Shown piece by piece: positions 674 to 56,175 of a DNA stretch of 64,000 bases. Source of the DNA: a virus. The stretch's first letter is position 1, and each line of letters starts with the position of its first letter. The notes under the pieces are model-generated. The model saw only the letters and a program-made list of their open reading frames with translations. It made no database searches and was not told the origin of the DNA. Both the position numbers and the translations under genes were made by a program. The stretch lies in the UHGV virus genome UHGV-1558314; one strand, 5' to 3'.

Positions 674-702
674 ATTGTACAACAAGAATGCAAAACTTGC
701 AC
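674..702 (-). promoter_or_regulatory. Sigma70-like promoter (GTGCAA -35 / N17 / TACAAT -10 within GTTGTACAATAT)
   Basis: Plus-strand attgtacaac at 674-683 and ttgcac about 17 nt beyond; about 30 nt upstream of topoisomerase start. Confidence 0.5.
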
Positions 703-3098: not shown

Positions 3099-3111
3099 AT
3101 TGCGAATGCTT

Positions 3112-3342: not shown

Positions 3343-3420
3343 AGATGTAGAGGTTTAGTATATTTGATAGTATATTATTTATAGATATATAATACTACAC
3401 ACTTGCAGATTTTGCACTTA
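3343..3420 (-). promoter_or_regulatory. Late-type AT-rich promoter (TATAAATA-like) with AACCTCTAC leader element
   Basis: Gene-sense reads ...CTATAAATAATATACTATCAAATATACTAAACCTCTACATCT-ATG. Confidence 0.35.
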
Positions 3421-10600: not shown

Positions 10601-10841
10601 CTTTTGACAATACACGTTTGCCTGTCTGTTCTTCAAATTGTGATTCTATACGGTCAAATTCATTGACCCAGCGTTCATGCATATCAGACAATGAGTGTTC
10701 ATACAGATTGTCTTTGTCATGATGCAAGTATTTTGACATGCATATGTCAGCAGCCATTGAGTCGCCTGTAAATTCATGTGTCAGTGTAGTGTGCACTTCA
10801 GCATATTCAGGCGACCCAATTTGAATAGGACGTTTTGTCAT
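7620..10841 (-). CDS. nrdJ: Class II (adenosylcobalamin-type) ribonucleotide reductase with mini-intein and C-terminal zinc ribbon
   Basis: Motif STNP-[insert]-CGEQPL reconstitutes the NPCGEQ active-site loop; C-terminal CPECGG...CVRCTNCGH; ORF-track start at 10901 is TTG inside the promoter, true ATG (MTKRPIQ) at 10839-10841. Confidence 0.9.
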   Translation of the reverse strand: MTKRPIQIGSPEYAEVHTTLTHEFTGDSMAADICMSKYLHHDKDNLYEHSLSDMHERWVNEFDRIESQFEEQTGKRVLSKERLAYLLEPFKRFVLGGSPMAGIGLGGYTSMSNCYVIGNDADSYGGIFKIDEEQVQLMKRRGGVGHDLSHIRPEGVEVHNSAVTTSGVVSFMERFSTSTKEVAQNGRRGALMLSLSIEHPDADKFIDAKKDLTKITCANISIKLTDAFMRAVLAEQQFEHVWRGSNGQELHKTSDAKALFDKIVDNVWASAEPGVFFWDRIMEESNSKAYGKMYEERSTNPCFTGDTKVLVADGSGLKTFKELADNGEDIPVYCLDANGKLVVRTMRRPRLTAHNAQIIQIVLDDGHVINCTANHEFRLANGDFKYAIDLATNDTLWAIDMPSADKLSIALKTDELVKTERNTVIKQCECCGKEFEISYDNREQSYCCEACAALGGCSKYADIDTTGDTIVKVVATRHMNKADVYNGTVEDFHNFFIAVNDKQVVNTLNCGEQPLAAYASCILSHRNLTAYVLNPWTADASFDFETFYKDTYDCAVIMDDLVQLEIEAVQRIIAKVQSDKEDFDIKKTELDLWHKVYDKLTNTRRYGMGFLALGDAMAMLGLRYGSQESIDFAVTMQQWLVKATYEASIDLAKIRGAFAIFDYDTDVQSKFVQRMLSEPIDDEHIKTYQQFGRRNINTTTIAPTGTTALMTQTTSGIEPVFMPLHKRRRKPTAVDNEADINFIDETTGDKFIEYAVVHYPLMQWICKRLQLGDGKFTLVKDTGIEWSEAEMSRIKAWLSNAPQAVIDELLVQSPYYKATTEDVDWIGKVKLQGALQKYIDSSISVTVNIPNSATKELVREIYMTAWKSGCKGCTIYRDGSRAGVLVKDDKQSKDKSHILQSGHRSKRKPVLPAAVYCVSVYKRKWCILVGCDDGRPYEIFAFELDKDEFDKLQGIEQTTITKTDKKHYKLGDNLSFLQHYDNISERLGSDEQQTITRLYSTMLRNGIDLGEIVDQTAKSFASVGTFCKAIGRALKLHIQDGSKMYAKCPECGGDMVKFDGCVRCTNCGHSACN
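9315..9938 (-). other. Mini-intein (about 208 aa) inserted at the RNR catalytic cysteine
   Basis: Starts CFTGDTKVL, block F-like VYNGTVEDFHNFFIAVN, ends ...VVNTLN followed by +1 Cys; Cys-rich insert KQCECCGKEFEISYDNREQSYCCEAC; no LAGLIDADG domain seen. Confidence 0.7.
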
Positions 10842-10882: not shown

Positions 10883-10911
10883 ATTGTACAACAATGGGCA
10901 AAATTTTGCAT
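10883..10911 (-). promoter_or_regulatory. Sigma70-like promoter (ATGCAA-N17-TACAAT) for RNR
   Basis: Plus attgtacaac at 10883-10892, ttgcat at 10906-10911. Confidence 0.5.
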
Positions 10912-10958
10912 CAACTCAAAACAGCCAAGCAATGAATTGCTTGGCTGTTTTGAGTTGA
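10911..10958. terminator. 48-bp perfect palindrome (22-bp stem, 4-nt loop); terminator or protein-binding site
   Basis: tcaactcaaaacagccaagcaa tgaa ttgcttggctgttttgagttga. Confidence 0.65.
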
Positions 10959-10969
10959 TGCGCACCTGC

Positions 10970-11605: not shown

Positions 11606-11780
11606 TGTAGTAGAGGTTAAAATATATTAATATATAATAATTATACTACAAAGTTGCCAGATTTGCACCAGAATGTATAACAAGTTCACACAAAATTACA
11701 AACAAAAACAAGCAGACTGCAATTACAGCCTGCTTGCACCAAAACAGAAAAAGATGATAACTTAACCCAAAAACCTAACT

Positions 11781-15971: not shown

Positions 15972-16000
15972 TATTGTACAATATGCATTGCTATTTTGCA
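15972..16000 (-). promoter_or_regulatory. Sigma70-like promoter (TTGCAA-N17-TACAAT)
   Basis: Plus attgtacaat at 15972-15981, ttgcaa at 15995-16000. Confidence 0.55.
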
Positions 16001-16248
16001 AGATGACAATGCTTACGCCATACTGCAATTTCAACATCTGTAGCAAAATCAAAGTGCAAGCCATGCAATTGTTTCATGTCATATTGACGTCTTGCAATAT
16101 ACTTATTGCCAACTCGCTCAACAACAGAACCAATTTCTACTACATTTTTAGAATGTCGTGGCTCATGTAATGGCACTCTGAATATGTATCTGCCATCTAA
16201 TGTTGACATTATGTCACCATTGTCAATTATGCCTGTTTGCCTGCTCAT
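15991..16248 (-). CDS. Hypothetical small protein (85 aa)
   Basis: ORF track only. Confidence 0.4.
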   Translation of the reverse strand: MSRQTGIIDNGDIMSTLDGRYIFRVPLHEPRHSKNVVEIGSVVERVGNKYIARRQYDMKQLHGLHFDFATDVEIAVWRKHCHLAK

Positions 16249-18367: not shown

Positions 18368-18461
18368 TGTAGTAGAGGTTTTTGTTAAATTTATTATATA
18401 TGTATATATTACAACGACAGTGCAAAATTTGCACTGTCGTAGCATAAAAGTTTACACATTT

Positions 18462-20626: not shown

Positions 20627-20655
20627 ATTGTACCACGTATGCATCAACTTTGCAC
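20627..20655 (-). promoter_or_regulatory. Sigma70-like promoter (-10 TACAAT)
   Basis: Plus attgtacca at 20627 and tttgcac at 20649-20655. Confidence 0.45.
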
Positions 20656-20661
20656 ACAAAA

Positions 20662-20689
20662 CAAGACCAACTCAATTGAGCTGGTCTTG
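20662..20689 (-). terminator. Hairpin with GCTCAATTGAGC-like core
   Basis: caagacca actcaattgagc tggtcttg, one mismatch. Confidence 0.5.
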
Positions 20690-20707
20690 CGGTCATATGT
20701 AGACTTC

Positions 20708-21269: not shown

Positions 21270-23222
21270 CTACTCTGCTTTTGTTGCTTGCATCAGTTCA
21301 GCAAAGCTTACAGTGTAAGCATCTTCACCAACAGTCACATATGCTGCATCAACATTGGAGTCATTGCCTGTGTATGTAACCAAGGTGCCTGCAGGAATTT
21401 CTACACCGTCAATTGTTCGCATCGAATTGACAAGCTTATATGTCTTGTTGTCTTCGAAGTTCTCATTGACATATGCGGCAGCAATCATTGTTGAACGCTT
21501 ACGAGATGCAGACTCATTGACAAAGCTTGCGCCAACAAGTTCTGACAGCTTCTTCTTTGTTGCTGCAGAACACTTGTCATATGCAATGTCAATTGCAAGG
21601 TCTACATCGCCAAGTTCCTTTGCAATGAGTTCATCAATCTGAGACAGCTTCTTGTCATCTTTGACAGCGACAAAATTCATTGCAAACTTGCGAGCGTTGT
21701 CTGACAATGATTCATCAATGTTCCACTGTTTCATCAATGTCTGCTTCAGTACCTTGTCAAGTTCCGACCAGTCCTTATCTGCAAGAGTAGTTGCATCAAA
21801 GTCTTCATTGCTGAACTGCTTCAGCACTTTGACTTTGTCATCATGTGACAATGCTGACCACTTGTTTGCAGCGTCTTCAGCAGATTCAAGCAGAGGCTTG
21901 ATTGCATCTTTGAGTTCTTGCGGCCAAGTTTCAGGCGCTTTGAGCAGCATCTCAGATGAGTTGTACTTAAGCATGTCGGTCATGATTGCAAGCTTAACAT
22001 TGTTAGCTTTCTCCTCAGGTGACAGAGCTTTGAACTTTTCAGCCCAGTCTTCAGATTCAGTCACGATTGATACTGGCTTTGCAAAACCAGCGACAAAGAC
22101 AAGCTTATACATGATGTTCGTCATGAATGAACAAACTGCATCAATATCAGACTGAGTTGCTGCAGATTGAGCATCACGAATGTTAAGCAATGCTTGACGA
22201 AGAGACATAATGCCTACAACAGGGTCAGACCATGTCAATACAACTGAACTATCGATTGTGATGCCCTTGTCAAATCGCATATTTTCTGCAATGCGGTCAG
22301 CAAGTTCAGGCAGTTCAGTGTAGTACTGCTCAAGTGCTGCATGTGTAGCAGGAATAGAAACTTTTGCAGCATCAAATGGGTTATTGATGTGCATAACATG
22401 TGCAGTTTGAATTGACTGCATCAGCATCGACACTACTGCAGATTCTATTGCAACATCATCTGCAGCAGCTTCATCAAGATTTGCAATTTTTAGCAATGCC
22501 TTTTTGTCTGCATCTGACAATCGCAGCCAAATGTATTCCCATTGACTGTTTGCATCATAGCCACGGTCAGTAGCAAACTTGGTGAGTTCTGCAGATTTCT
22601 TTGCTGCGTCATCGTCATCAAGCCAATCCAAGAATGCTTTCAGTTTGTCGTCAAATGCTTCATTGACAAATGACGCCATCGCATTTTGCAACAAATATTG
22701 ATGGTCTCGTACTGGTGACTCAACAATTTCAAAGCCTTCAAGAGACTTTGGCGAGTCAGTTGCTGAACCAGCTTCAAGACACTTCTTTGATGCATTGTCA
22801 ATGACAAACCACATCTTTTGTGCTTTGAGTGCAATGTAAGTCTTGTCTTTTGATTGCTGAACAGTCATGTTGTCAAGAGCCAATGCACTGATTGGCAAAT
22901 TCTTGACTGCTGACTTGTCAAGTGCTTCATTGACTGCTACATTGTCATCACTCATTAACTGAGTATTTGCAGCAAATGTTGCAGAATCAATGCTAAGCTC
23001 TTTGCCATCGGGCATAGCGAACTTAACTGCATCTGCAACATCAAGCACTTGCACCATGGTGCCTGCTTCGACTTTGTCGTCACCAACAGCGAACTCAGTT
23101 ACAACCTGATATGCTTTGTTAGCTTCAACAGTCTCAACAGACTCCATAATGAACTTTGCTGTGCTGCAAGAGATTTTGTGCTTTTTCATGTTCATGTATG
23201 AATTTGAGTGTTTGTTGTTCAT
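21270..23222 (-). CDS. Acidic 650-aa protein with several xVNE sites; candidate scaffold/internal head protein
   Basis: ASFVNEAFDD, ASFVNESASR, AAYVNENFED, VAVNEALDK. Confidence 0.75.
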   Translation of the reverse strand: MNNKHSNSYMNMKKHKISCSTAKFIMESVETVEANKAYQVVTEFAVGDDKVEAGTMVQVLDVADAVKFAMPDGKELSIDSATFAANTQLMSDDNVAVNEALDKSAVKNLPISALALDNMTVQQSKDKTYIALKAQKMWFVIDNASKKCLEAGSATDSPKSLEGFEIVESPVRDHQYLLQNAMASFVNEAFDDKLKAFLDWLDDDDAAKKSAELTKFATDRGYDANSQWEYIWLRLSDADKKALLKIANLDEAAADDVAIESAVVSMLMQSIQTAHVMHINNPFDAAKVSIPATHAALEQYYTELPELADRIAENMRFDKGITIDSSVVLTWSDPVVGIMSLRQALLNIRDAQSAATQSDIDAVCSFMTNIMYKLVFVAGFAKPVSIVTESEDWAEKFKALSPEEKANNVKLAIMTDMLKYNSSEMLLKAPETWPQELKDAIKPLLESAEDAANKWSALSHDDKVKVLKQFSNEDFDATTLADKDWSELDKVLKQTLMKQWNIDESLSDNARKFAMNFVAVKDDKKLSQIDELIAKELGDVDLAIDIAYDKCSAATKKKLSELVGASFVNESASRKRSTMIAAAYVNENFEDNKTYKLVNSMRTIDGVEIPAGTLVTYTGNDSNVDAAYVTVGEDAYTVSFAELMQATKAE

Positions 23223-23268
23223 ATGATATGATATATATCAAGTGCAGCAATTGAACAGATTGCAAAAA

Positions 23269-23298
23269 CAATGCTCAGACTGTAAAGTCTGAGCATTG
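23269..23298 (-). terminator. Hairpin (12-bp stem)
   Basis: caatgctcagac tgtaaa gtctgagcattg. Confidence 0.55.
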
Positions 23299-23339
23299 AA
23301 CGACTAAATTGTGCATCTTCCACAATGATATAGAATCAT

Positions 23340-23470
23340 TGTTAATATTGTATTGATATTGTACAACATGCATTGCATATTTGCAATGATACAACATGCA
23401 AAATGCGCTTGCACTTTGATGCAAAGTGCTGCGTATACAACATGCATCGCGTATTCGCATTTGATGCAAT
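23340..23470 (-). repeat. Cluster of three tandem promoter-like repeat units (TTGCAN-N17-GTTGTA[CT]AAT variants)
   Basis: attgtacaacatgcattgcatatttgcaatg / atacaacatgcaaaatgcgcttgcac / gtatacaacatgcatcgcgtattcgcatttgatgc; related copies at 24515-24590 and 48250-48360. Confidence 0.55.
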
Positions 23471-23474: not shown

Positions 23475-24494
23475 CTATTGCTTATGCCAGCCATATGATG
23501 CCTGACCAGCATCATACACTTCTACAAAACCATGGTCGTACATAAAATCTTCATTACGAGTGCCCTTGCCCCCATTAGTACCAAGAATACGGTCTGCACC
23601 ATGCATAAGCAGCATATTATTTGTGATATGTTGCTTTGTCAGCATATTGAACCAATGTTTGCTATATGACAAGCCAAGACCATCAAAGCCCAGCTTTGTG
23701 TACACGCCACCATCAAACTTGCTCAAATCACAATACGACAACACAGATTCAGGGTCATATGTCTTGATAAAGTGCTTGAATATGCGTTCGGCGCCACCTA
23801 CGACTTTTGTTGCTGCACAAAGACGCAGTAGTTCATACTGATATCGCTTATTGTATCGTGGACGACCAAATGTCATAAGCTGATGTATGACATAGCCGCC
23901 AAGCAATTCAAGTGGATGGCCTTCAATCAACGCAAGATTGATAAAATTGCCTGAGCACTTGCCTTGCAAATGATGTTCAATCAAAAATTGATTTGCAGTA
24001 TACTTGTCAATTTCAACAACTTTAAGCTTGCGAGCATATACAATCTTTGATTTGTCTACGATTTGATGCTTGATGTGATTGATAACTTTCTTGGCGTCAT
24101 CCCAATCCCACACATGAATGCAATGAAAGCCTGCAGCTTTTGCAATGTCTGTTTTCTTTGCATGAATATCACAAGGCAAATGCGAATCTTTTGCAGCATG
24201 CATAAATAGATGCTCAAATGAATGCGTGCTATTATGTGAAAATGTGGGATTGATGTTGATGACGATGTTGTCATGTCTAAAATCGAAGACTTCATCACCA
24301 ATAACAAAGTTGCGCTCAAAATCTATACCGACATGTTTGAGTAATACTTGATGCCACACATCTTTATAGGCTGATTCAAGATTGCTTAGCTCATCACAGT
24401 TTGCAATATTTTTGTAACGTTGAATAGCAGCATCAAAGTCAAGATTGACTTCAGCGTAGTCTGCATTTTTATCGTAGTGAAATTTTGAGCTCAT
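23475..24494 (-). CDS. Homing-endonuclease-like protein, family paralog 1 (Vsr/DUF559-like nuclease motif)
   Basis: IVININPTFSHNSTHSF ... GFHCIHVWDWDD and C-terminal VEVYDAGQ shared with paralogs; ATG at 24492-24494. Confidence 0.75.
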   Translation of the reverse strand: MSSKFHYDKNADYAEVNLDFDAAIQRYKNIANCDELSNLESAYKDVWHQVLLKHVGIDFERNFVIGDEVFDFRHDNIVININPTFSHNSTHSFEHLFMHAAKDSHLPCDIHAKKTDIAKAAGFHCIHVWDWDDAKKVINHIKHQIVDKSKIVYARKLKVVEIDKYTANQFLIEHHLQGKCSGNFINLALIEGHPLELLGGYVIHQLMTFGRPRYNKRYQYELLRLCAATKVVGGAERIFKHFIKTYDPESVLSYCDLSKFDGGVYTKLGFDGLGLSYSKHWFNMLTKQHITNNMLLMHGADRILGTNGGKGTRNEDFMYDHGFVEVYDAGQASYGWHKQ

Positions 24495-24515
24495 GTGTAT
24501 AATTTGTATGAGATT

Positions 24516-24544
24516 ATTGTACAACATGCAAATGCATGTTGCAT
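24516..24544 (-). promoter_or_regulatory. Sigma70-like promoter (ATGCAA-N17-TACAAT)
   Basis: Plus attgtacaac at 24516-24525, ttgcat at 24539-24544. Confidence 0.5.
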
Positions 24545-24598
24545 TTGATGCAAAGTACTGCGTACACAACATAAAGTACAAGTTTGCTTTTGACAGAC

Positions 24599-25621
24599 TT
24601 ACTTTGTATTGCTACGCGTCATTGTTAAATGACCGCAATCATACACATCAACTTCTGTTTTGCCAAGCATGCATGTATGACAATTTATTTTGAAATCTAC
24701 TGCAGTGTAGTCAGGATAGTTTAGCGGAGATTCTTTTGACAAATCAATTTCAATTGTGTCAGTAGTTTTAAGTTGTTCAGTGCCTGCAATGATATCTGCA
24801 ATGAGATTGATAACATCTTCTTGTGAATCCCAGTCAAACACAGTTATGCAACGATAGCCTGCATCAAGCGCAAGTTTTGTTTTGTTGTAATGGTATTGCG
24901 CATCAAGTGGCTCATTTTTGTCAGACAATTTTGTTGCATATCGAAACCCAAGCGTGCTGTTATGCGATACGGTAGGATTGATTTCTACAAGCAATTTATG
25001 TGTGCCATCAATATCATATGACAAATCATATGAATAACGTTGAATTCTAACTGCGTCAAGCTGCATGTCAATGTGTAAATGACGCAATATTATTGCATGC
25101 CAATGCTTGTTGATGCCCGATATTATATTTGCAGCTTCCATGCATTTTGGATGCATTACAAAATACGGCACGCCAAAGCGTTCTTGTATTGTTTTGTATG
25201 CTTTTGCATTAGAATCTTTACCATAAATGCTGCCATAACGCTTAAGCTTTGTAGCAATCAACTTGTCTATGTCACCCATAGCATTGCCAAAGCGCTCAAT
25301 CTTATGCTGTTTAATGGCATCTTTGTCGCCAAACATATGACCATATCGAGACATCTTTGTTGCTTTGACTGCATTGATGTTGCAACCTGCACCATATCGA
25401 GCATGCATAGTTTGCATGCGTTTAGCAATGTGCTCTTGTGATTGCTTAATTTGTTCGGTGCCAAATTTGCGCAAATTATTGATACGCTTAGTAACATCTT
25501 GTTTAATGACTGAATGCGTGGTTGTTCGCTTGCCAAGTCTTACACATTCTGTAGTTTTGAGCAATGTATCTCGTTCAAACTCAATTTGTGCAATTCGTGC
25601 AACAATTTCTTTAGATGTCAT
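24599..25621 (-). CDS. Homing-endonuclease-like protein, paralog 2 (tandem K/R-Y/F-G repeats + Vsr-like nuclease motif)
   Basis: Repeats ...MSRYGHMFGD...IERFGNAMGD...LKRYGSIYGKD...; LLVEINPTVSHNSTLGF ... GYRCITVFDWD ... VDVYDCGH; ATG at 25619-25621. Confidence 0.75.
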   Translation of the reverse strand: MTSKEIVARIAQIEFERDTLLKTTECVRLGKRTTTHSVIKQDVTKRINNLRKFGTEQIKQSQEHIAKRMQTMHARYGAGCNINAVKATKMSRYGHMFGDKDAIKQHKIERFGNAMGDIDKLIATKLKRYGSIYGKDSNAKAYKTIQERFGVPYFVMHPKCMEAANIISGINKHWHAIILRHLHIDMQLDAVRIQRYSYDLSYDIDGTHKLLVEINPTVSHNSTLGFRYATKLSDKNEPLDAQYHYNKTKLALDAGYRCITVFDWDSQEDVINLIADIIAGTEQLKTTDTIEIDLSKESPLNYPDYTAVDFKINCHTCMLGKTEVDVYDCGHLTMTRSNTK

Positions 25622-25640: not shown

Positions 25641-25670
25641 ATTATACAACATACAAATGAGTTTTGCATT
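25641..25670 (-). promoter_or_regulatory. Sigma70-like promoter (-10 TATAAT variant)
   Basis: Plus attatacaac at 25641-25650, ttgcat at 25665-25670. Confidence 0.4.
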
Positions 25671-25700
25671 TTTGATGTAGCAATTGCTTGCACAGTTTGC

Positions 25701-25737
25701 AAAAAAGAACCGCTTGCAATCTAATTGCAAGCGGTTC
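25701..25737 (-). terminator. Rho-independent terminator (14-bp stem + U tract on minus strand)
   Basis: aaaaaa gaaccgcttgcaat cta attgcaagcggttc. Confidence 0.7.
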
Positions 25738-25966: not shown

Positions 25967-27682
25967 TCAAATCCAGCCGTAGTCGCTGTGGATAGCGAAG
26001 GTGAGGTAAGCCAACTCGGGATACATACCCGTCTCCGCGAGAGCGTAATCCGACTCAATCAGCAACTTTGGCGCTGCTGTTCCTTCGGCTGTTAATTCCA
26101 CACTTGATGCAAGGTCATATGGCATGAATACACATCCCTGGTTGACATTCTCTACGTCAACACCGTCAGCAGTCTTGTTCGTACGAAGAACGAGAACAGT
26201 GTTGTCGTTCAGCGGCTGCTTAGGATTGCAATAGATTTTAATGCCAGCAAGGTCACCTGCGTAATACAGGTTTTTGTTGTCCTGTACCAGCGTATTGTCA
26301 AGAGCTGCAACAAAGTTTTTCTGAGCCTTAATTGCAACCAAGGCAATCGTATTGACCACAGCAGCATCACCAGCACCGAAACGCGACAGGTTGCCAATGA
26401 TTGCCGAAGCAGCCAGGATACGCGTTGCGATACGAGCCTGACGGGTAATCTGGTTCTCAGCCGAGCTGTTCGATTCAGCGTTCGGAACCATGCCGAATTC
26501 AGCCGTACGGTCTACACCCATCTTGTCGACAAATGCAGGAGCTTGGAATTCCGAGAATGCCTTGGCAGTCGAACCAGCGTAGCCAATGTACAAGTTCAGG
26601 TTGTAGCCCTGAGCAGCCAACAGCTGAGCATGTGTCGTAACACCAAGTGCACGCATGCGCTTCAGACCATTGTCATTGATTGACTGCGTGATTTCATTCT
26701 GCATTGCATTCTTGATGATTGCAACTGCATCCAAACCGCGAGCACGGAGGTCCTTAACCTGGCGACGAGTCAGAGCGCCCCAAGTCTGGTACGTCTTAAC
26801 TTCGATAGCCTTTGAGAAGGTGCGGAGCTCCAGCATGTTCGGGTTGCCAGCCTCAGCCTCAGAACGAGACATTGGGTTGCCGTCAAGGTCATCCATTGCA
26901 GCGAAGCCGTGGATGTGTTCGTCACCAGCCGAAACCAGGTCGAACATAACCTCAGTCATACCAGTCAGCAAGTCAGTTACAGCACCTGCAGCGTCAACCG
27001 AGTAGATTTTCGATGCAGCCATTGCAACATCAGCCAACGACTTGTCAGGAGCAACAGTCATTGCGCCACCTGCGCCTACAGTGTACACGCCCTCATTGCG
27101 AACTACGAGGTAGCCTGCAACACGCGATACCTGTACAAACGTTACTTTGGCAGCAAGCTCACCAGCAGCTGAACCGCCGATGTACAGAACTTGACCCTTC
27201 TTGAGGCCACGAACCATTGTCTGCGAAGCAACATTGTACAGTTCCTTCCACTTGATGAGGAAGTAGCGAGGACCCTTGGCAACATTCAGCTTGCCGCCAC
27301 CATACACGTAGTCTACATAGTCCAGCTGAACCAGCGGGCTGTAAACAGGAATGGTCGGGAGCAGGTCGAACAGAATCGTGTTGGCTGCGATGTTCATGTT
27401 CAGAGCCAGAACATTGGCAGCTACATCGATTGAACCACGCTTACGCGACGGGTCATGGAACTGTGCTTGCGTGCCTGGGTCAGCAGGGAAAGCGACCGGA
27501 CCTACGCCATTGAGATTCTGCGAATACGTCGACTCAAACGACTCGTTCATATACTGAACGTTCTGAGCGATTGATGCGAGCAGATACTTCTTAGCGGGCG
27601 AGAGCTTGGAGTCAAACGACTCATCAAGAACAGGGCCCCACTTTTTCAGCAATGCATCAATCTGTGTACGTTTTGCGTTCAT
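25967..27682 (-). CDS. Putative major capsid protein (571 aa) with N-terminal propeptide cleavage motif
   Basis: Markedly GC-richer codon usage than neighbours; N-terminal ...NVQYMNE/SFEST matches the recurrent xNE motif; late-type promoter upstream; family assignment not verified. Confidence 0.7.
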   Translation of the reverse strand: MNAKRTQIDALLKKWGPVLDESFDSKLSPAKKYLLASIAQNVQYMNESFESTYSQNLNGVGPVAFPADPGTQAQFHDPSRKRGSIDVAANVLALNMNIAANTILFDLLPTIPVYSPLVQLDYVDYVYGGGKLNVAKGPRYFLIKWKELYNVASQTMVRGLKKGQVLYIGGSAAGELAAKVTFVQVSRVAGYLVVRNEGVYTVGAGGAMTVAPDKSLADVAMAASKIYSVDAAGAVTDLLTGMTEVMFDLVSAGDEHIHGFAAMDDLDGNPMSRSEAEAGNPNMLELRTFSKAIEVKTYQTWGALTRRQVKDLRARGLDAVAIIKNAMQNEITQSINDNGLKRMRALGVTTHAQLLAAQGYNLNLYIGYAGSTAKAFSEFQAPAFVDKMGVDRTAEFGMVPNAESNSSAENQITRQARIATRILAASAIIGNLSRFGAGDAAVVNTIALVAIKAQKNFVAALDNTLVQDNKNLYYAGDLAGIKIYCNPKQPLNDNTVLVLRTNKTADGVDVENVNQGCVFMPYDLASSVELTAEGTAAPKLLIESDYALAETGMYPELAYLTFAIHSDYGWI

Positions 27683-27770: not shown

Positions 27771-29060
27771 TCATTTTTCAATCTTTTTGAGCAATGCATG
27801 ACCGCAATCATAGACTTCGACGAAGCCTGAAGCAATCAATGAGTCAACATCTATAGAAGACGTTCGTATAATATGTTCGTGTGTCTTGATATTGTATAGA
27901 TGACACTGAACCCATGTTTTGACGACTTCATAATTTGGATACAATCGAGGGTCTTCTTTTGACAAATCAAGTTCTATGACATCATCAGTTTTGAGCTGCT
28001 CAGTTTTGTTTATGACATCTCTAATGTGCAGCAACATATCATATCTACAATCCCAGTCAAATATTGTTATACATCGATAGCCATTGCGTGCTGCAACATC
28101 TGTTTTGAATTTGTGAGCATACGCAGGTTTGGCGTCATTATCAACAGAATGCCCAGTTATGTAACCAAAGCCCTTTGTTGCATTGTGTGTAACAGTTGGA
28201 TTGATTTCAATTACAACAGCATCTTTTCGCAAATCATATAACAAGTTCTCAATAGGATGCTCAGTAACAAAATCAAGATTGCAAGAATGTTTCAAATCCC
28301 ATTGCCACGACATATTGATGTTTGATGTCAACCTTGCAGATGCTTGCGGCAATTGCAATGCATGTTCTACACCATAGCGTTCACGTAATGTTGCATGAGC
28401 CCTTTGCATATTTTGCATTGCGGGACCCCAATGCTCAAATTTTGTAGCATTTATCTTTGCAATTTTGTCTGGTAGCTTATTTGTACTATCTACACCATAT
28501 TTAATAAGACAACTGATGCGAATATTGTATTGTCGTTTTATTCGAGAATGTGACGTAGCACATCTACTAAATCGTTCAAATGGTGTTGATGCAATCAATG
28601 CATCTCGTTCTGACTCAAGAGCTTTGACATGTTCAAGCACTTCTGCTGGTACATTATCATAGTCAATCACATATTGCTGACGTGGTTGCGTTACATGAGT
28701 TTTGCCGTGTGTCTTAAGCTTATTGATTTGTATGCTATACTTTCTGCGTATATGTGGATGTCTTGATGCATCAGATTGCGCAATTTCATGCTCTCGTTGC
28801 TCTTCAAGTTTAGCTATTTGCTCAACAATAGCTGGTTCAATGTCTGGTTTGTCTGATATGACTATGTTTTTAAGCTCATCAAGACGCTTGTTGAGATATT
28901 TGACACGTCTTGTATATGTTATCTTTGCAACTTGATGGTTTGTATGATGCTTGCCTACTTGCTGTTCTGGTTGATTCAGCGTGTCATCAAGGCGTTGCTT
29001 AGCGAGCTCAAATTCATTATCAAGCCATGCTTTATGCGCATCAAATTCATCTTGTGTCAT
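27771..29060 (-). CDS. Homing-endonuclease-like protein, paralog 3
   Basis: VVIEINPTVTHNATKGFGY ... GYRCITIFDWDCRYD ... VEVYDCGHALL. Confidence 0.75.
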   Translation of the reverse strand: MTQDEFDAHKAWLDNEFELAKQRLDDTLNQPEQQVGKHHTNHQVAKITYTRRVKYLNKRLDELKNIVISDKPDIEPAIVEQIAKLEEQREHEIAQSDASRHPHIRRKYSIQINKLKTHGKTHVTQPRQQYVIDYDNVPAEVLEHVKALESERDALIASTPFERFSRCATSHSRIKRQYNIRISCLIKYGVDSTNKLPDKIAKINATKFEHWGPAMQNMQRAHATLRERYGVEHALQLPQASARLTSNINMSWQWDLKHSCNLDFVTEHPIENLLYDLRKDAVVIEINPTVTHNATKGFGYITGHSVDNDAKPAYAHKFKTDVAARNGYRCITIFDWDCRYDMLLHIRDVINKTEQLKTDDVIELDLSKEDPRLYPNYEVVKTWVQCHLYNIKTHEHIIRTSSIDVDSLIASGFVEVYDCGHALLKKIEK

Positions 29061-29806: not shown

Positions 29807-30556
29807 TCATCGTACAGTGAATGACTTATCATCATCTTCTGTAGTAGTCGGGTCATCAATTACATCGTGGCCAATGCCTGACTCTGGTTCTGGTTCTGGT
29901 TCCGGTTCCGGTTCCGGTTCTGGTTCTGGTTCCGGTTCTGGTTCCGGTTCTGGTTCCGGTTCTGGTTCCGGTTCTGGTTCCGGTTCTGGTTCAGGTTCTG
30001 GTTCCGGTTCCGGTTCTGGTTCTGGTTCCGGTTCTGGTTCCGGCTTGGGCTCTGGCTTGGGCTCTGGCTTGGGCTTCGATGAATAATCAAACATCTTATG
30101 AATCCATTTGCACCACCATTTGCGACATACATGTGTGCCATCATGATAATACGCTTGCAGCTCCATTGGAATTGCATGATATGCTTTGTCATGTGACATA
30201 CCTTTGAATACTCGCAAGTACACATAGCACAAGCAATATGCAATGTAGTACATAAGCGGTGATGCAAGCAGCCACCACCAGCTAAGCACATTGCATGCTG
30301 CAAGCACAATAAGTACAAGCAACGTCGCAAGTGTTACGAAGATGAATTGCTTTGCATGCACAGCTTCATGCTTCAATGTCTCAGAATATCTACTAAGTGT
30401 GTCATCATATGACTTATCACTTCTTATGAAGCACATTGCACACAACGACATTGCATAATAATGTGAAAATGGAATGTATGGCTGGTCGATGACAAGCATT
30501 GGTCCAGCAAACCACAGTCGCCACTGAGATTTCTTTGGCAGTGTTGCAGTTTTCAT
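29807..30556 (-). CDS. HExxH-motif membrane protein with C-terminal (KPEP)/(PE)n repeat tract
   Basis: [10 protein letters not shown] followed by hydrophobic helices; C-terminal about 60-aa PE repeat encoded by the hexanucleotide SSR. Confidence 0.7.
29884..30074. repeat. Hexanucleotide microsatellite (GGTTCY)n about 30 units plus (GGCTTGGGCTCT)n
   Basis: Direct reading of ggttctggttccggttcc...; encodes (PE)n on minus strand. Confidence 0.9.
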
Positions 30557-33457: not shown

Positions 33458-33560
33458 GTTCGTTATCGTATTTGTAAATTGTGAAATGTTGCTTTGTTTG
33501 ATTATAACTTGATATATGTATGTATATGATGACATCAAACATGTTGTTGACCAAAATCAA

Positions 33561-33588
33561 AAAGACCAGCTCAATTGAGCTGGTCTTT
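33561..33588 (-). terminator. Palindromic hairpin aaagaccagctcaattgagctggtcttt
   Basis: 28-nt perfect palindrome with GCTCAATTGAGC core. Confidence 0.6.
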
Positions 33589-33611
33589 CAAATGCTGTTT
33601 AACTATCATCA

Positions 33612-40908: not shown

Positions 40909-41053
40909 TTTTGTATTGCTTTGAATATCTATACACGTCTTGTCAATTTGACATGACCGCAGTCATCTGCAATTATTTAGTAGTGTGTATATGCGTAATT
41001 TGCGTTGCAATTTGTAGTCAAATCACGAACTTCATATGTTGTAGCAGACTCAT

Positions 41054-45850: not shown

Positions 45851-45856
45851 GACAAT

Positions 45857-46480: not shown

Positions 46481-47736
46481 TAACTGTCATACGACCAGTG
46501 ACCACAGTCATACACTGGCACAAATCCAGTGTCAAGCATTTCTTGCTCATTAAAGTCATCATCAAGCAAGTGTTCACCCGATTTTGTATTAACCCAGTGC
46601 TTCTTAATTGTGCATTCATCAACCGCAAAGGGATTAAGTACATTGTCAGTACAGTCAATGAACGCATCATTCAAATGCGCTTCAATGATATGAAGCACAA
46701 TTTCTTGGTCGTGCCAATCAAATATCATGAGTGGCGTGTAGCCACATGCAATTGCAAGTTGTTGCTTCCACCAATGATAGTTTGGCTATTTTGCTTCTGC
46801 AGCATTTCGTTTAAAGCCATACACGCTATTATGAGTATGCGTCGGGTTAACGTCAATTAGCAGATTGCCATAATACAGGTCATATGACGTTATGCCAACA
46901 CCATGTTCAAACTCAAAATGCACACCAAGATGTTCTTCAATGTATGATTGCCACCATCTGTTTGGCGCAGATATGATTTGCCCATTTGCTTGCATACATT
47001 TATTTGTCATGCAAAACCATGGCACACCGTAACGTTCCATACAGGTTTTTGAAATTGCAGCAAGCCATTCATCTTTGTCTCTATGCGGCCATGCATAACC
47101 ATAACGCAGACGGCATGTTTGTTGAGCTTTAGCAACGATTGGCGCTAAACGTTCACCGTATATTTCACGTTTAGTTGCGATGGCTTTGCGTGGATTAGTC
47201 CATCCAGCATCACCCCATCGCTCAAGCTTCGTTTGCTGAGATTTTTCAACAATCAGTTCAAGATTCTCACCATATTTTTGACGACGAGTTTGCATTGCTG
47301 CAACATAATCTGTAATGCATCTATGGCCATACAAACGTTCTTTTGTCGCACATTGAACATCTACTGGACCTTGTGGATAGCCATAGCGTTCCATATTCGT
47401 TTGACGAATATGTGCTTTATCGCCATATGAACTGCCGTAGCGTGCAACTTTAGTGGCAATTGTTTGCTTGATGTTGCCTGCTTTAGAACCATAACGAGCT
47501 TCTTTAGTTGCTACGCATTTTTGTTTGACTTCTGCTCTGTTCCAATTATGCTCAACGCCATGTTTACGAAGATGGCCAATTTTCATGTTGTACACGTTTT
47601 TGATATGACCATGAGATGTCTTACGTGGTGCATATCGTACAAATGGTGTTTCTGCAAGCAACTTATCTCGTTCAGCTTCAAGCTCTTTAATTCGAGCTTC
47701 AAGAGCTTCACCAGTCAAAGGCTCTACATGTTTCAT
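46480..47736 (-). pseudogene. Homing-endonuclease-like paralog 4 interrupted by a single in-frame TAG (46786-46788)
   Basis: ORFs 46786..47736 and 46480..46728 are in the same frame; intervening codons read *PNYHWWKQQLAIACGYTPLMIFDW and align with intact paralogs. Confidence 0.7.
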
Positions 47737-48233
47737 TCGTGTTTGCCAGTTTGAAATAACGAATCAATTGGGATGTGAATACCAGGTTTGGATTGAATGT
47801 TCCATCCGCGCGCCAAACCATTAAGTACGCAGCTCGTAAGGTAAGAAAACGCGTTTTGAGTTACTGTTGGGTCAAACATTTGCCACTTTGACGCCAAAAT
47901 TAGCATGGCTTCTGCTGCGACATCTGCTTGCAAGTCTTTGTCTCTGTAGTATAAACGTCTCTGCACATGTTTGATAAGCAACTCAAACATGTGTATAAGT
48001 TTATCTGACAGCTGCCCAGATACTTTGCATGCGCATATTTCTGCACAAAGTTCTTTGTTGTTAATGTAATAGTTTGATGGCTGACCACGTTTCTTTGTGT
48101 TTGCTGCTTCTTCACGAAGTTGGTCTTCAAGCTGTGTCAACATGTCATCATCTGACACATATTGAATATGCTTATCTTCTGGCAGTTTAGATTCTATTGG
48201 TTGTAAGTTTTGCAGTGGCATAACAGTGAGCAT
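47733..48233 (-). CDS. Late-transcription sigma factor, T4 gp55-like
   Basis: PSNYYINNKEL matches T4 gp55 N-terminal KYNYVNNKEL; QNAFSYLTSCVLNGLARG region similar; ATG at 48231-48233. Confidence 0.7.
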   Translation of the reverse strand: MLTVMPLQNLQPIESKLPEDKHIQYVSDDDMLTQLEDQLREEAANTKKRGQPSNYYINNKELCAEICACKVSGQLSDKLIHMFELLIKHVQRRLYYRDKDLQADVAAEAMLILASKWQMFDPTVTQNAFSYLTSCVLNGLARGWNIQSKPGIHIPIDSLFQTGKHE

Positions 48234-48249: not shown

Positions 48250-48360
48250 ATTGTACAACATGCAAAATGTTTTTGCACCATTTTGATACAACATGCATTG
48301 CATATTTGCAATGATGCAAAGTACGATGTACACAACATGCATTGCATATTTGCAATCATA
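48250..48360 (-). repeat. Three tandem promoter-like repeat units (about 35-40 bp each)
   Basis: attgtacaacatgcaaaatgtttttgcacc / gatacaacatgcattgcatatttgcaatg / gtacacaacatgcattgcatatttgcaatc. Confidence 0.55.
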
Positions 48361-48390
48361 AAAAAGCTCAGCCAATTACGGCTGAGCTTT
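48357..48390 (-). terminator. Rho-independent terminator
   Basis: aaaaa agctcagcc aattac ggctgagcttt. Confidence 0.6.
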
Positions 48391-48437
48391 CATTGAGATG
48401 CAACTTTTACGTTGACAGCAAACCTAACTATGTTCGG

Positions 48438-52683: not shown

Positions 52684-52712
52684 ATTGTACAACACACATT
52701 GCAATTTTGCAA
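52684..52712 (-). promoter_or_regulatory. Sigma70-like promoter (TTGCAA-N17-TACAAT)
   Basis: Plus attgtacaac at 52684-52693, ttgcaa at 52707-52712. Confidence 0.55.
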
Positions 52713-52726
52713 TATGTGTGTTAAAC

Positions 52727-52762
52727 AAAAATGCAGCAGCAGAACATCTGCTGCTGCATCGG
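52727..52762 (-). terminator. Rho-independent terminator
   Basis: aaacaaaa atgcagcagcag aacat ctgctgctgcat. Confidence 0.6.
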
Positions 52763-53629: not shown

Positions 53630-53697
53630 CTTGTATCTATGTTGTTGATTTTCAATTTAATATATTGAACAACATTTGTTGACATTTTGCAACATTG

Positions 53698-54939: not shown

Positions 54940-54959
54940 TTATTGTTATTATATGTTGA

Positions 54960-54988
54960 TATTGTACAACATGTGTTAACTTTTTGCA
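54960..54988 (-). promoter_or_regulatory. Sigma70-like promoter (ATGCAA-N17-TACAAT)
   Basis: Plus attgtacaac at 54960-54969, ttgcat at 54983-54988. Confidence 0.5.
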
Positions 54989-56175
54989 TGACCACAATCA
55001 TACACCGCAACATAGCCAGCATCAATCATCTCTTGCTCATCTTGTCCGCAATCTTCAATATGTTCTTTTGTCTTCAAATGACACCAGTGTTTGCGAATTG
55101 TTGACTTGTCATCTGACAATTGCGGATTGAGTGCGAAGTCAGTTGAGTCTACTGGTTCACCTGCAAGATGCTTTCTAATGACATCAATGACAACATCAAA
55201 TGGCATCCAGTCAAACACTGTAATGCAAGTGTAGCTGTGTTTGATAGCAAGTTGTGTTTTGTTAAAATGGTTGTCATATGGTCGTTGCCAATTATGATTT
55301 GCATTGAACACAATATTTGCAAAACTACGCGTGCTATTATGAGAAATAGTTGGGTTAAGTTCAATTAGCAACTTATGCGATTTGCAAACAATGTCATATG
55401 ACAATGACGTGTTCTCAAATGTAAATTCTTGCTCAAAATGCACATCAAGGTTATCAAATAGCATGTTAAGCCTTGTGCATATTTTTGTATTGTGTGCAGA
55501 CTTTGCTTTAGATTTTGCTCTGCATTGAGGCAATTGGCATGGCCACACTACACCATGACGTGACAATGTTGTTGCACGAATTGCGTCAAGATTCGTTGAT
55601 GGATTGCCATATCGAGCTATTCGAGTTTGCCTTGCTTTGTCTATATTGCCTGGGCCTGCATTGCCCCATCGCTGCAACTTTGTTTGTCGAGCTTGTTCAT
55701 GATTGCTGTAATATGGGTCTCCATATCGTTCAAGCTTTGTTTGCTTTAACTTACTCATGTCGCCAAGCCCATTGCCATACTTAGCACGCTTTGTTTCTAT
55801 GCCTTTCTTTAGATTGCCTCGTTTGTTGCCATATTTTGCAATGTTGTGTGCATTACGTTTTTCAATGTCACCAAACCCATTGCCATATCGTGCAAATTTT
55901 GTTGCTTGCGCTTTTTCAAAATTGACTGCTAATGTGCCATAACGAGCATACTTAGTTGCTTTGCCCTTATCAACGACTTCTTTACGATGCAATGCAGCTT
56001 CAACACCATATTTTCGCAAATTTGTAATTTTTGCATTGTATCGTCGTCTAATTGTTGCATGAGTGTTGTTACGAGACCCTGTTCTGACATATTCAGTTGC
56101 AGCAAGTTCAGCATCACGTAACTGCTCAAGTTCTGCAATTCGTTGTTCAAGTTCAGCGCCTACAAGTGGTTTCAT
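54976..56175 (-). CDS. Homing-endonuclease-like protein, paralog 5, between the two polymerase ORFs
   Basis: Seven about 17-aa repeats with (K/R)YG core; LLIELNPTISHNSTRSF ... SYTCITVFDW ... VAVYDCGH. Confidence 0.75.
   Translation of the reverse strand: MKPLVGAELEQRIAELEQLRDAELAATEYVRTGSRNNTHATIRRRYNAKITNLRKYGVEAALHRKEVVDKGKATKYARYGTLAVNFEKAQATKFARYGNGFGDIEKRNAHNIAKYGNKRGNLKKGIETKRAKYGNGLGDMSKLKQTKLERYGDPYYSNHEQARQTKLQRWGNAGPGNIDKARQTRIARYGNPSTNLDAIRATTLSRHGVVWPCQLPQCRAKSKAKSAHNTKICTRLNMLFDNLDVHFEQEFTFENTSLSYDIVCKSHKLLIELNPTISHNSTRSFANIVFNANHNWQRPYDNHFNKTQLAIKHSYTCITVFDWMPFDVVIDVIRKHLAGEPVDSTDFALNPQLSDDKSTIRKHWCHLKTKEHIEDCGQDEQEMIDAGYVAVYDCGHAKS

What the first reader, a model, noticed from the sequence alone, without database searches (positions are those of the whole stretch)
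23269..23470. Terminator-promoter cassettes and tandemly repeated promoter units (PeSL-like elements)
Most minus-strand genes are preceded by a hairpin followed by TTGCAA-N17-TACAAT, with the -10 inside the palindrome GTTGTACAAT. At 23340-23470, 24515-24590 and 48250-48360 the promoter unit is repeated two to three times with near-identical sequence. Dispersed repeats of this kind resemble the promoter-early stem-loop cassettes proposed to drive modular shuffling in T4-type genomes, and could mediate recombination between homing-endonuclease-associated loci.
Basis: partly seen in the sequence, partly recalled or inferred. Interest (0 to 1): 0.5.

Follow-up and report, generated by a model that had tools for sequence, protein, structure and literature searches.

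The report
Repeated early-promoter units beside homing-endonuclease genes
The flagged stretch is a real stack of three copies of this gut phage's own early-gene promoter (only the last looks intact), followed by a short hairpin-terminated transcript; the copy number changes between strains, which makes it a new example of the promoter/terminator cassettes already described in T4-type phages rather than a new kind of element.

Summary
The window comes from an uncultivated ~175-kb T4-like phage found in human-gut metagenomes. It carries a strand-specific motif, nTGCAA-N17-TAnnAT (usually ...CATGTTGTACAAT). The motif occurs at 17 loci, about a quarter of genes rather than "most". It lies 16-46 nt upstream of replication and nucleotide-metabolism genes, the gp55-like sigma gene and homing-endonuclease-like genes (HEGs). 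It is absent upstream of capsid, portal, protease and sheath genes. Six of the 17 loci sit directly behind a strong intrinsic-terminator hairpin, the PeSL-like layout.

At 23358-23460, 24516-24572 and 48250-48355 the unit is stacked. The stacks share a 20-nt linker found nowhere else in the window. Most upstream copies have a broken -10.

At the flagged locus the 13-bp hairpin lies downstream of the promoters, so they drive only a ~90-nt terminated RNA.

Strains differ in copy number: 1-3 units at the flagged locus, 3 vs 1 at 48.3 kb, 1 vs 2 at 15.98 kb. One HEG comes and goes together with its 3' promoter.

Gene-level indels look like HEG insertions, not recombination between two flanking units. 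Transcription and mini-circles are untested.

Verdict: new member of a known kind, of moderate interest.

The parts
23475..24494 (-). Free-standing homing-endonuclease-like gene (HEG2, 339 aa), directly upstream of the flagged array
   Evidence: phrog_3339 'homing endonuclease' 1.5e-42 and phrog_559 'HNH endonuclease' 4.5e-36. It is a paralogue of four other HEG-like genes in the window.
23432..23460 (-). Unit A of the array: degenerate promoter copy (ATGCGA-N17-TATACG, lacks the final T of the -10)
   Evidence: (22.7 bits). It is absent in strain L026.
23417..23436 (-). 20-nt linker ATACGCAGCACTTTGCATCA joining units A and B
   Evidence: It occurs only in the three arrays of the window (3 matches, 0 expected).
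23386..23414 (-). Unit B: GTGCAA-N17-TATCAT, a possibly functional second promoter
   Evidence: (26.7 bits). The B-C junction block of 45 nt recurs at another locus in relative R.
23358..23386 (-). Unit C: intact promoter TTGCAA-N17-TACAAT, the best-scoring site in the window
   Evidence: 45.1 bits.
23322..23342 (-). 8-bp hairpin SL1 in the short transcribed segment; overlaps an 11-codon mini-ORF at 23304-23339
   Evidence: (fold, z -4.68). An A-to-G change in L026 keeps pairing as U.G.
23264..23298 (-). Intrinsic-terminator-like hairpin (13 bp, 6 GC, loop TTAC) plus T5. It would end transcripts from the array after about 90 nt.
   Evidence: The stems are conserved in all strains, and the loop is inverted to GTAA in L024.
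23220..23241 (-). Late-type promoter-like TTGATATATAT and the ATG (23222) of the 650-aa DUF5856 gene 21270-23222
   Evidence: The late-promoter assignment is an inference from similar ATATATAA-like motifs upstream of the structural genes.
24516..24572 (-). Second array: partial relic plus linker (24546-24572), then an intact promoter ATGCAA-N17-TACAAT (24516-24544), 21 nt before the HEG2 start
   Evidence: It is conserved in strains L024 and L026. Together with the downstream array it forms a direct repeat of about 60 nt around HEG2.
24599..25621 (-). HEG-like gene HEG1 (340 aa), of the same paralogous family
   Evidence: BLASTP 2e-51 to the 54976-56175 protein. Its N-terminal 700 nt is replaced in relative R, starting just after the 25641-25669 promoter.
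48250..48391 (-). Third array: terminator hairpin (48360-48391), unit 1 (48327-48355, -10 broken), linker (48312-48331), unit 2 (48283-48311, TATCAA), and unit 3 (48250-48278, intact), 16 nt before the gp55-like gene
   Evidence: There are three units in 4 strain variants and a single unit in relative R.
47733..48233 (-). gp55-like late sigma factor gene (166 aa) driven by the third array
   Evidence: phrog_234 'late sigma transcription factor' 1.3e-8 and Pfam Sigma70_r2 (weak). The start codon was corrected.
54961..56175 (-). HEG (54976-56175, 399 aa, DUF7487) with a promoter fused to its 3' end (54961-54989; the -35 ATGCAA lies in the last codons CGHAKS*)
   Evidence: The whole segment 54950-56180, promoter included, is absent from R, L010 and L014. 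Their empty site has no promoter.
52684..52760 (-). Terminator (52730-52760, 14 bp) plus promoter (52684-52712) cassette before the C-terminal DNA polymerase gene
   Evidence: Strains L010 and L014 have a 320-aa HEG inserted between the terminator and the promoter.
25641..25737 (-). Terminator (25707-25737, 14 bp) plus promoter (25641-25669) cassette downstream of the capsid gene
20627..20690 (-). Terminator (20661-20690) plus promoter (20627-20655) cassette before the dNMP-kinase operon
11640..11737 (-). Terminator (11708-11737) plus promoter (11640-11668, GTGCAA-N17-TATAAT) cassette
10883..10960 (-). 24-bp hairpin (10909-10960) overlapping the promoter (10883-10911) before the ribonucleotide reductase large-subunit gene
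15973..16001 (-). Single promoter unit that is duplicated (28-nt insertion) in other strains
   Evidence: One unit in 6 alleles; two units in R, L024, L027 and L028.
674..702 (-). Further single promoter unit. Other single units lie at 3389-3417, 18406-18434, 53664-53692, 57714-57742, 59807-59835 and 61686-61714.
   Evidence: Positions and hexamers are conserved in strains while spacers vary.

Best explanation
The segment is an intergenic control region of a T4-like gut phage.

Reading the coding (minus) strand from 23460 to 23220, it contains:
1. three stacked copies of the phage's early/middle-class promoter (nTGCAA, 17 nt, TAnnAT), of which only the last is fully intact and one more is plausible;
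2. a transcribed stretch of about 90 nt with an 8-bp hairpin;
3. a strong intrinsic terminator that stops this early transcription before the next gene;
4. a separate late-type promoter for that gene.

The same promoter unit is used genome-wide for replication, nucleotide-metabolism, late-sigma and homing-endonuclease genes. At about a third of its loci it sits directly behind a terminator, which is the layout called PeSL in T4-type phages.

The stacks are not built for extra promoter strength. They are by-products of recombination between short promoter repeats: slippage or unequal exchange within a locus, and gene conversion between loci. Much of this is linked to the turnover of homing-endonuclease cassettes, which often carry or abut a promoter at their 3' end.

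Shown: the motif statistics, the anatomy, the strain polymorphism and the co-insertion of one HEG with its promoter.

Inferred: that the units initiate transcription, which RNA polymerase/sigma reads them, and the recombination route.
For: Motif reality:
- 9 exact GTTGTACAAT, all on the coding strand, against 0.41 expected.
- 21 units at >=15 bits on the coding strand against 0 on the other.
- The spacer is 17 nt at all 17 loci, and the units lie 16-46 nt from the ATG.

Gene class:
- Downstream genes are the RNR large subunit, both halves of DNA polymerase B, the dNMP-kinase operon, the gp55-like sigma and HEGs.
- Capsid, portal, protease and sheath genes lack the motif.

Constraint:
- Across strains TGCAA and TAnnAT stay fixed while spacers change at 4-8 of 17 positions.
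- The 75%-identity clade has TTGCAA-N17-TATAAT/TACAAT at equivalent places.

Terminator link:
- 6 of 12 strong coding-strand hairpins are followed by a unit within 60 nt.

Relic nature of the stacks:
- Upstream copies read TATACG, TGTACG, TGTACA and TATCAA.
- All three arrays share a linker found nowhere else.

Dynamics:
- The flagged array has 1 unit in L026, at least 2 in L025, 3 in the window and R, and 3 in a different arrangement in L024.
- The 48.3-kb array has 3 units against 1 in R.
- The 15.98-kb site has 1 unit against 2, a 28-nt indel between GCAATGCAT repeats.

Exchange between loci:
- The 45-nt B-C junction of the flagged array recurs with one mismatch at the 15.98-kb locus of R.
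- 42 nt at the 3' flank of the site-B HEG in L010 match units 2-3 of the 48.3-kb array.

HEG link:
- The HEG at 54976-56175 is present or absent together with its 3' promoter, and the empty site has none.
- The site-B HEG adds a relic unit.
- HEG2 is bracketed by a direct repeat of about 60 nt.

Short transcript:
- Two hairpins, -29.1 kcal/mol, z -4.68.
- The stems are conserved in all strains.
- Only 1 mismatch in 179 nt against R, where flanks are about 95.7% identical.
Against: - No transcript data exist. Promoter function rests on sequence logic only.
- The host is unknown. Genes lack Shine-Dalgarno sequences (1 of 55) and have A-rich -12 to -14 positions. That is typical of Bacteroidota, whose main sigma factor reads TTTG/TAnnTTTG rather than TTGACA/TATAAT. 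A Chryseobacterium phage relative does show TAtaTTTG motifs, and this window does not. So who reads the motif is open.
- TGCA-containing words are very common in this genome (TTGCAA 136 times), which weakens the -35 match taken alone.
- Only about half of the structural differences from relative R lie near a unit.
- Not every HEG has a 3' promoter (site D).
- No strain lacking HEG2 was found, so recombination between its two flanking arrays is not demonstrated.
Confidence: 0.62

Rival explanations
1. The stacks are selected tandem promoters that raise early expression, as with the three A promoters of T7. They would not be recombination by-products.
For: Three units are kept in 4 of 5 strain variants upstream of the gp55-like gene. 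Unit B at the flagged locus has a usable -10, TATCAT.
Against: - Four of five upstream copies lack the essential second or sixth base of the -10.
- Copy number ranges from 1 to 3 between otherwise near-identical strains.
- The flagged array drives only a ~90-nt terminated RNA.
- The shared linker shows the copies were moved as blocks rather than evolved in place.
Confidence: 0.15
2. The units are binding sites (operators or iterons) for a phage DNA-binding protein that recognises TGCAAA/TTTGCA half-sites. The arrays would then act as regulatory or replication-origin elements.
For: - Many units contain an inverted TGCAAA...TTTGCA pair, for example TGCAAAAACATTTTGCA at 48250-48278 and GTGCAAATTTTGCAC at 18406-18434.
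- The arrays have a period of about 45 nt with a conserved linker.
- A similar TTGCAAAAAcATTTTCA element recurs upstream of genes in Chryseobacterium phage MA9V-2.
Against: - The half-site spacing varies from 0 to 7 nt, and several strong sites have no second half-site.
- TGCA-rich words are common genome-wide and are explained by trinucleotide usage.
- The only invariant features are the two hexamers at a fixed 17-nt distance, which is a promoter signature.
- There is no GC-skew turn or AT-rich unwinding region at the arrays.
Confidence: 0.1
3. The real product of the flagged locus is a small RNA or an 11-residue peptide (MILYHCGRCTI) expressed from the array.
For: - A strong promoter is followed by two hairpins and a terminator; the fold has z -4.68.
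- The segment is more conserved against R than its flanks.
- The mini-ORF stays open at the same length in four alleles, including a TAG-to-TAA change.
Against: - There is no Rfam match.
- The segment between the hairpins is the most variable part.
- Nothing comparable is present at this position in the 75%-identity clade.
- A terminator shielding a late gene from an adjacent early promoter explains the same anatomy.
Confidence: 0.12
4. The pattern is a compositional artefact of a TGCA-rich, AT-rich genome.
For: TTGCAA occurs 136 times against about 20 expected from base composition. A generic sigma-70 scan is not enriched.
Against: - Dinucleotide-preserving shuffles never reach the observed counts.
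- Strand specificity is total.
- Spacing is fixed.
- Placement is intergenic and the hexamers are conserved across strains.
Confidence: 0.01

Closest known systems
PeSLs (promoter-early stem-loops) of T4-type phages RB49/phi1, T4/PST and KVP40/nt-1 (Arbiol et al. 2010, PMC2839356; Comeau et al. 2014, PMC4122927)
   Same: - They are dispersed, conserved cassettes made of a terminator stem-loop directly followed by a sigma-70-like -35/N17/-10 promoter and a nearby start codon.
- They sit in a T4-like genome next to variable genes.
- The 2014 paper (Fig. 5 legend) also reports degraded versions with multiple weak copies of -35/-10 boxes, attributed to recombinational slippage.
   Different: - Only 6 of 17 promoter loci have the upstream stem-loop, and the flagged locus does not.
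- There is no Shine-Dalgarno element.
- The consensus differs (nTGCAA ... GTTG-TAcAAT).
- The arrays share a specific 20-nt linker.
- The gene indels seen here are HEG insertions, not exchanges between two flanking cassettes.
- Mini-circles are untested.
- The phage is only distantly related (capsid protein about 37% identical to its nearest isolates, which are not classical T4-likes).
Free-standing homing endonuclease genes of T4 (mobE between nrdA and nrdB, seg genes; Edgell et al. 2010, PMC2988022)
   Same: - The endonuclease genes are intergenic and are present or absent between close relatives.
- They are weakly expressed by read-through.
[quoted passage not shown] This matches the promoter at the 3' end of the 54976-56175 HEG.
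   Different: - Here the promoter is physically part of the inserted segment, with its -35 inside the last codons of the HEG.
- Relic copies accumulate as arrays.
- The endonuclease family (DUF7487 / phrog_3339) has no recognisable solved relative.
T4 middle promoters / PmSLs (MotA box TGCTT at -30 plus a -10)
   Same: The upstream element begins with TGC, and the downstream genes are of the replication/middle type.
   Different: TGCAAA sits at -34 to -29 with a 16-nt gap to the -10, about 3 nt further upstream than a MotA box. No MotA or AsiA homologue was looked for outside the window.
Tandem early promoters of T7 (A1, A2, A3)
   Same: Three closely spaced promoter copies ahead of early genes.
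   Different: In T7 all three are active. Here most upstream copies have lost key -10 bases, and the number varies between strains.

Membership tests
PeSL (promoter-early stem-loop cassette) | Stem-loop (terminator) immediately upstream of the promoter | tested here: inconclusive
   Met at 6 of 17 promoter loci (10.9, 11.7, 20.7, 25.7, 48.4 and 52.7 kb). Not met at the flagged locus, where the hairpin 23269-23298 is downstream of the units.
PeSL (promoter-early stem-loop cassette) | Sigma-70-like -35 / 17-nt spacer / -10 | tested here: met
   nTGCAA-N17-TAnnAT at all 17 loci. This is tested at sequence level only.
PeSL (promoter-early stem-loop cassette) | Shine-Dalgarno sequence and start codon at the 3' end of the element | tested here: not met
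   A start codon follows at 16-46 nt, but only 1 of 55 genes has a GGAG/GAGG/AGGA core upstream.
PeSL (promoter-early stem-loop cassette) | Many dispersed copies with conserved sequence | tested here: met
   21 units at 17 loci in 64 kb, with blocks of 25-45 nt identical between loci.
PeSL (promoter-early stem-loop cassette) | Association with insertions, deletions and replacements between closely related phages | tested here: inconclusive
   About 6 of 20 structural differences from relative R lie within 50 nt of a unit, against about 1 expected from the fraction of sequence covered. Against a null of gene junctions only, the enrichment is modest. Several indels have no unit nearby.
PeSL (promoter-early stem-loop cassette) | Gene excision or insertion by recombination between two flanking cassettes (mini-circles) | not testable with these tools
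   HEG2 is flanked by a direct repeat of about 60 nt, but no HEG2-less allele was found. Sites A and B have a unit on one side only. The test needs inverse PCR.
Intrinsic (rho-independent) terminator | GC-rich stem, short loop, then a run of T on the transcribed strand | tested here: met
   23264-23298: 13 bp, 6 GC, loop of 4, T5. The stems are conserved in all strains. Termination itself was not measured.
Free-standing homing endonuclease gene | Presence/absence polymorphism at an intergenic site in otherwise collinear genomes | tested here: met
   Three sites (polN|114-aa gene, 275-aa gene|polC, gp55|next gene) are occupied in some strains and empty in others.
Free-standing homing endonuclease gene | Recognisable nuclease catalytic domain | tested here: inconclusive
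   There are PHROG matches to families annotated as homing/HNH endonuclease and to Pfam DUF7487. No solved relative was found by sequence, and the catalytic motif was not identified.
T4 MotA-dependent middle promoter | MotA box (TGCTT) centred at -30, 11-13 nt from the -10 | tested here: not met
   The upstream element is TGCAAA, 16 nt from the -10.
Bacteroidota primary-sigma promoter | -33 TTTG and -7 TAnnTTTG | tested here: not met
   TAnnTTTG is not enriched on the coding strand (25 against 42 on the other strand) and is absent from the units. Relative MA9V-2 does carry TAtaTTTG motifs.

The most novel reading that the evidence does not exclude
The homing-endonuclease cassettes of this phage lineage carry a portable promoter fused to their 3' end. 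The -35 lies in the conserved C-terminal codons ...CGHAK. Each insertion therefore delivers a new transcription start to the gene downstream, and each loss or replacement leaves a promoter relic. On this reading the arrays at 23.4, 24.5 and 48.3 kb are scars of repeated endonuclease turnover. Homing would then be a mechanism that spreads and homogenises promoters across the genome, and not only genes.
Probability: 0.3. Interest if true: 0.5.

Novelty: new member of a known kind. Interest (0 to 1): 0.35.

Why it matters
- It extends promoter/terminator cassettes, so far described in T4-type phages of Proteobacteria, to an uncultivated and widespread human-gut lineage only distantly related to T4.
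- It adds something the original studies lacked: several natural strain variants that show promoter-unit copy number changing at the same locus.
- It gives a ready map of 17 candidate early promoters, 12 terminators and at least three polymorphic endonuclease sites for anyone who isolates this phage.
- It raises a concrete question. The genes look as if they are translated in a host without Shine-Dalgarno sequences (Bacteroidota-like), yet the promoter resembles the classical sigma-70 type rather than the Bacteroidota type.

Tried and rejected
- A near-identity DNA search of isolate phage genomes found nothing.
- Rfam found nothing in the whole window at gathering thresholds, and only chance-level hits in the flagged region. 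There are no tRNAs.
- A generic sigma-70 scan showed no enrichment, so a specific weight matrix was built instead.
- Exact-protein look-ups failed for the gp55-like gene until its start codon was corrected, and then returned only the same strain.
- Look-ups with the 185-aa and 160-aa proteins returned only near-identical contigs.
- Members of the capsid cluster with long contigs could not be looked up.
- A scan of viral contigs for the array linker found only relative R.
- The 399-aa endonuclease-like protein has no solved relative by sequence.
- The idea that TGCA over-representation is a special tetranucleotide signal was rejected. It follows from trinucleotide usage (observed/expected 1.07).
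- The idea that every HEG carries a 3' promoter was rejected (site D).
- An origin-of-replication reading was considered and dropped, because there is no skew turn or unwinding element.

Full report
**What the window is.**
- Nearly all genes lie on the minus strand.
- The capsid protein (25967-27682) is a gp23-type protein. It is about 37% identical to those of Chryseobacterium phage MA9V-2, Sphingomonas phage PAU and Tenacibaculum phages.
- The window also encodes a portal, a prohead protease, a tail sheath, a gp55-like late sigma factor, a split family-B DNA polymerase, an RNR large subunit and a dNMP kinase.
- There is no near DNA match among isolate phages.
- The same sequence occurs in a 175,395-bp metagenome contig.
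- A relative about 92-97% identical ('R', IMG/VR 3300045988_152288, 174.6 kb) and a clade with 75% capsid identity from human-gut metagenomes were retrieved.
- Genes lack Shine-Dalgarno sequences (1 of 55) and are A-rich at -12 to -14. This matches what is described for Bacteroidota (PMC6847099, abstract). The host assignment is an inference only.

**Is the motif real?** Yes.
- GTTGTACAAT occurs 9 times exactly, always on the coding strand, against 0.41 expected. After a coding hexanucleotide repeat, it is the most over-represented 10-mer.
- A 40-column matrix built from 18 sites finds 21 units at >=15 bits on the coding strand and none on the other.
- These fall at 17 loci. Every one has exactly 17 nt between nTGCAA and TAnnAT, and where a start codon can be assigned it lies 16-46 nt downstream.
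- The conserved part is TGCAA(A), then (CA)TGTTG, then TAcAAT.
- The inner TTGTACAA is palindromic, but variants such as TATAAT, TAATAT and TATTAT break the palindrome and keep TAnnAT. The -10 reading therefore explains the conservation better than a palindrome does.
- TTGCAA-type words are common in this genome because of trinucleotide usage. The -35 match alone would be weak, but the fixed distance is not.

**Which genes carry it.**
- The motif precedes the RNR large subunit, both DNA polymerase halves, the dNMP-kinase operon, the gp55-like gene and several endonuclease-like genes.
- It is absent before the capsid, portal, protease and sheath genes. Those have ATATATAA-like motifs reminiscent of T4 late promoters.
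- This points to an early or middle promoter class.
- Between strains the two hexamers stay fixed while spacers change. The 75% clade has TTGCAA-N17-TATAAT/TACAAT at matching places.

**Terminators.** Twelve strong hairpins with T-runs lie on the coding strand. Six are followed by a unit within 60 nt. This is the PeSL layout (PMC4122927). The other six precede late-type or no recognisable promoters.

**The flagged locus.** On the coding strand the order is as follows:

| Coordinates | Feature |
|---|---|
| 23475 | Stop of an endonuclease-like gene (HEG2, 23475-24494; phrog_3339 1.5e-42) |
| 23432-23460 | Unit A (-10 TATACG) |
| 23417-23436 | 20-nt linker |
| 23386-23414 | Unit B (TATCAT) |
| 23358-23386 | Unit C (TTGCAA-N17-TACAAT; 45.1 bits, the best site in the window) |
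| 23322-23342 | 8-bp hairpin SL1 |
| 23264-23298 | 13-bp hairpin with T5 |
| 23220-23241 | TTGATATATAT and the ATG of a 650-aa DUF5856 gene |

The array would produce only a ~90-nt RNA (fold -29.1 kcal/mol, z -4.68).
- This stretch differs from R at 1 of 179 positions, where the flanks are about 95.7% identical.
- It has no Rfam match.

**The arrays are related to each other.**
- The linker (GTACGCAGTACTTTGCATCA and variants) occurs only in the three arrays (3 matches, 0 expected). In R it occurs only at the two sites flanking HEG2.
- Upstream copies mostly have broken -10 elements (TATACG, TGTACG, TGTACA, TATCAA).
- The core ATTGCAAATATGCAATGCATGTTGT is identical at 23.4 and 48.3 kb.
- The 45-nt B-C junction recurs, with one mismatch, at the 15.98-kb locus of R and of three other strains.

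**Strain variation.**
- At the flagged locus the array has three units in the window, L023 and R. L024 has three units in a different arrangement (two linkers). L025 has at least two. L026 has one. The two downstream hairpins are kept in all.
- At 48.3 kb four variants have three units and R has one.
- At 15.98 kb six alleles have one unit and four have two, a 28-nt indel between GCAATGCAT repeats.
- These are the signatures of slippage or unequal exchange.

**Link with endonuclease genes.**
- The window holds five paralogous endonuclease-like genes: 54976-56175, 27771-29060, 24599-25621, 23475-24494 and a disrupted copy at 46480-47736. It also holds a different endonuclease and a remnant near 41 kb.
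- Three intergenic sites are occupied in some strains and empty in others.
- At site A the inserted segment (54950-56180) contains the gene and a promoter whose -35 lies in the last codons. Empty alleles have no promoter there.
- At site B the endonuclease sits between a terminator and the resident promoter. It brings a relic unit, and its 3' flank matches 42 nt of the 48.3-kb array.
- At site D the endonuclease has no promoter.
- T4 offers a precedent: a middle promoter lies between mobE and nrdB (PMC2988022).

**Comparison with PeSLs.**
- Shared: a terminator followed by a sigma-70-like promoter, dispersed conserved copies, neighbourhood of variable genes, and degraded multi-copy versions ascribed to slippage (PMC4122927, Fig. 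5 legend).
- Not shared or untested: the stem-loop is missing at most loci, including the flagged one, and there is no Shine-Dalgarno element. The gene-sized indels I could inspect have a unit on one side only, several indels have none, and mini-circles (PMC2839356) cannot be tested here.

**Open point.** The motif is sigma-70-like, while translation signals look Bacteroidota-like and TAnnTTTG is not enriched. A Chryseobacterium phage relative does carry TAtaTTTG motifs. Which polymerase or sigma reads the units is therefore unknown.

**Verdict.** This is a real, well-delimited regulatory repeat with demonstrable population dynamics. It is best filed as a new member of the known promoter/terminator-cassette kind, with an endonuclease-linked twist that deserves a broader strain survey.

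Noticed in passing
whole window: GATC does not occur at all in 64 kb, and CTAG occurs only twice (16308, 19012). The 75%-identity clade also avoids both. This suggests strong restriction avoidance.
   Followed up: partly
window 29896-30045 (-), in gene 29807-30556: About 25 tandem copies of GAACCR encode a (Pro-Glu)n run. The length differs from relative R and slightly from the otherwise identical contig L008.
   Followed up: partly
window 56184-57689 and 51370-52662 (-): Family-B DNA polymerase is split into an N-terminal (exonuclease) gene and a C-terminal gene about 3.5 kb apart, with dUTPase, MazG and other genes between them. The split is present in all strains, with or without endonuclease genes. 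The Chryseobacterium phage relative has a TnpB gene next to its polymerase gene.
   Followed up: no
window 40930-41060 (-); L006 18800-20060: The window keeps only the first ~26 codons and the last few codons of an endonuclease gene that is intact in relative R. R's copy carries a 30-nt tandem duplication near its end. The window has a different endonuclease (41054-42172, phrog_15427) just upstream.
   Followed up: partly
window 46480-47736 (-): This endonuclease-like gene is broken into 316-aa and 82-aa ORFs in the window but is an intact 399-aa gene in relative R.
   Followed up: partly
window 23282-23285 (-); L024 about 1775: The loop of the 13-bp terminator reads TTAC in the window and its reverse complement GTAA in strain L024, with identical stems, as if the hairpin had flipped. 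The loop of the 48.4-kb terminator also differs between strains.
   Followed up: no
window 33560-33589 and 20661-20690 (-): Two terminator hairpins 13 kb apart are nearly identical (GAAAGACCAGCTCAATTGAGCTGGTCTTTT and GCAAGACCAGCTCAATTGAGTTGGTCTTGT).
   Followed up: no
window 3355, 11618, 18380, 61631 (-): A subclass of the promoters (-10 TATTAT/TATAAT/TAATAT preceded by GTAG or GTTG) is followed by AT-rich ATATA runs, in one case TATAAATA. These share a leader containing AACCTCTAC, which at 3355, 11618 and 18380 ends just before the start codon and at 61631 lies about 55 nt downstream of the -10 of the 61686-61714 promoter, and an upstream TTGTGAAAAT-like element.
   Followed up: no
all minus-strand gene starts: There are no Shine-Dalgarno sequences (1 of 55 genes). 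Upstream regions are G-poor and A-rich, with A peaking at -13/-14. This is a Bacteroidota-like pattern although the promoters are not of the Bacteroidota type.
   Followed up: partly
L020 (Chryseobacterium phage MA9V-2, OR513085.1 150845-192533): There is a recurring intergenic element, TTGCAAAAAcATTTTCATATGTC, about 12 nt, then TTATATATTTGTAT (a TAnnTTTG-type -7 box). Its first part resembles the -35 region of the window's promoters. This phage also has an endonuclease-like gene directly after its capsid gene.
   Followed up: no
window 7620-10841 (-): The RNR large-subunit gene is unusually long (1073 aa) and has a weak Intein_splicing Pfam hit in the precomputed annotation.
   Followed up: no
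window 3104-3345 and 45635-45852 (-): Two small genes (76 aa and 82 aa) are absent from relative R. The first lies immediately after a promoter unit. The second has no unit nearby.
   Followed up: partly
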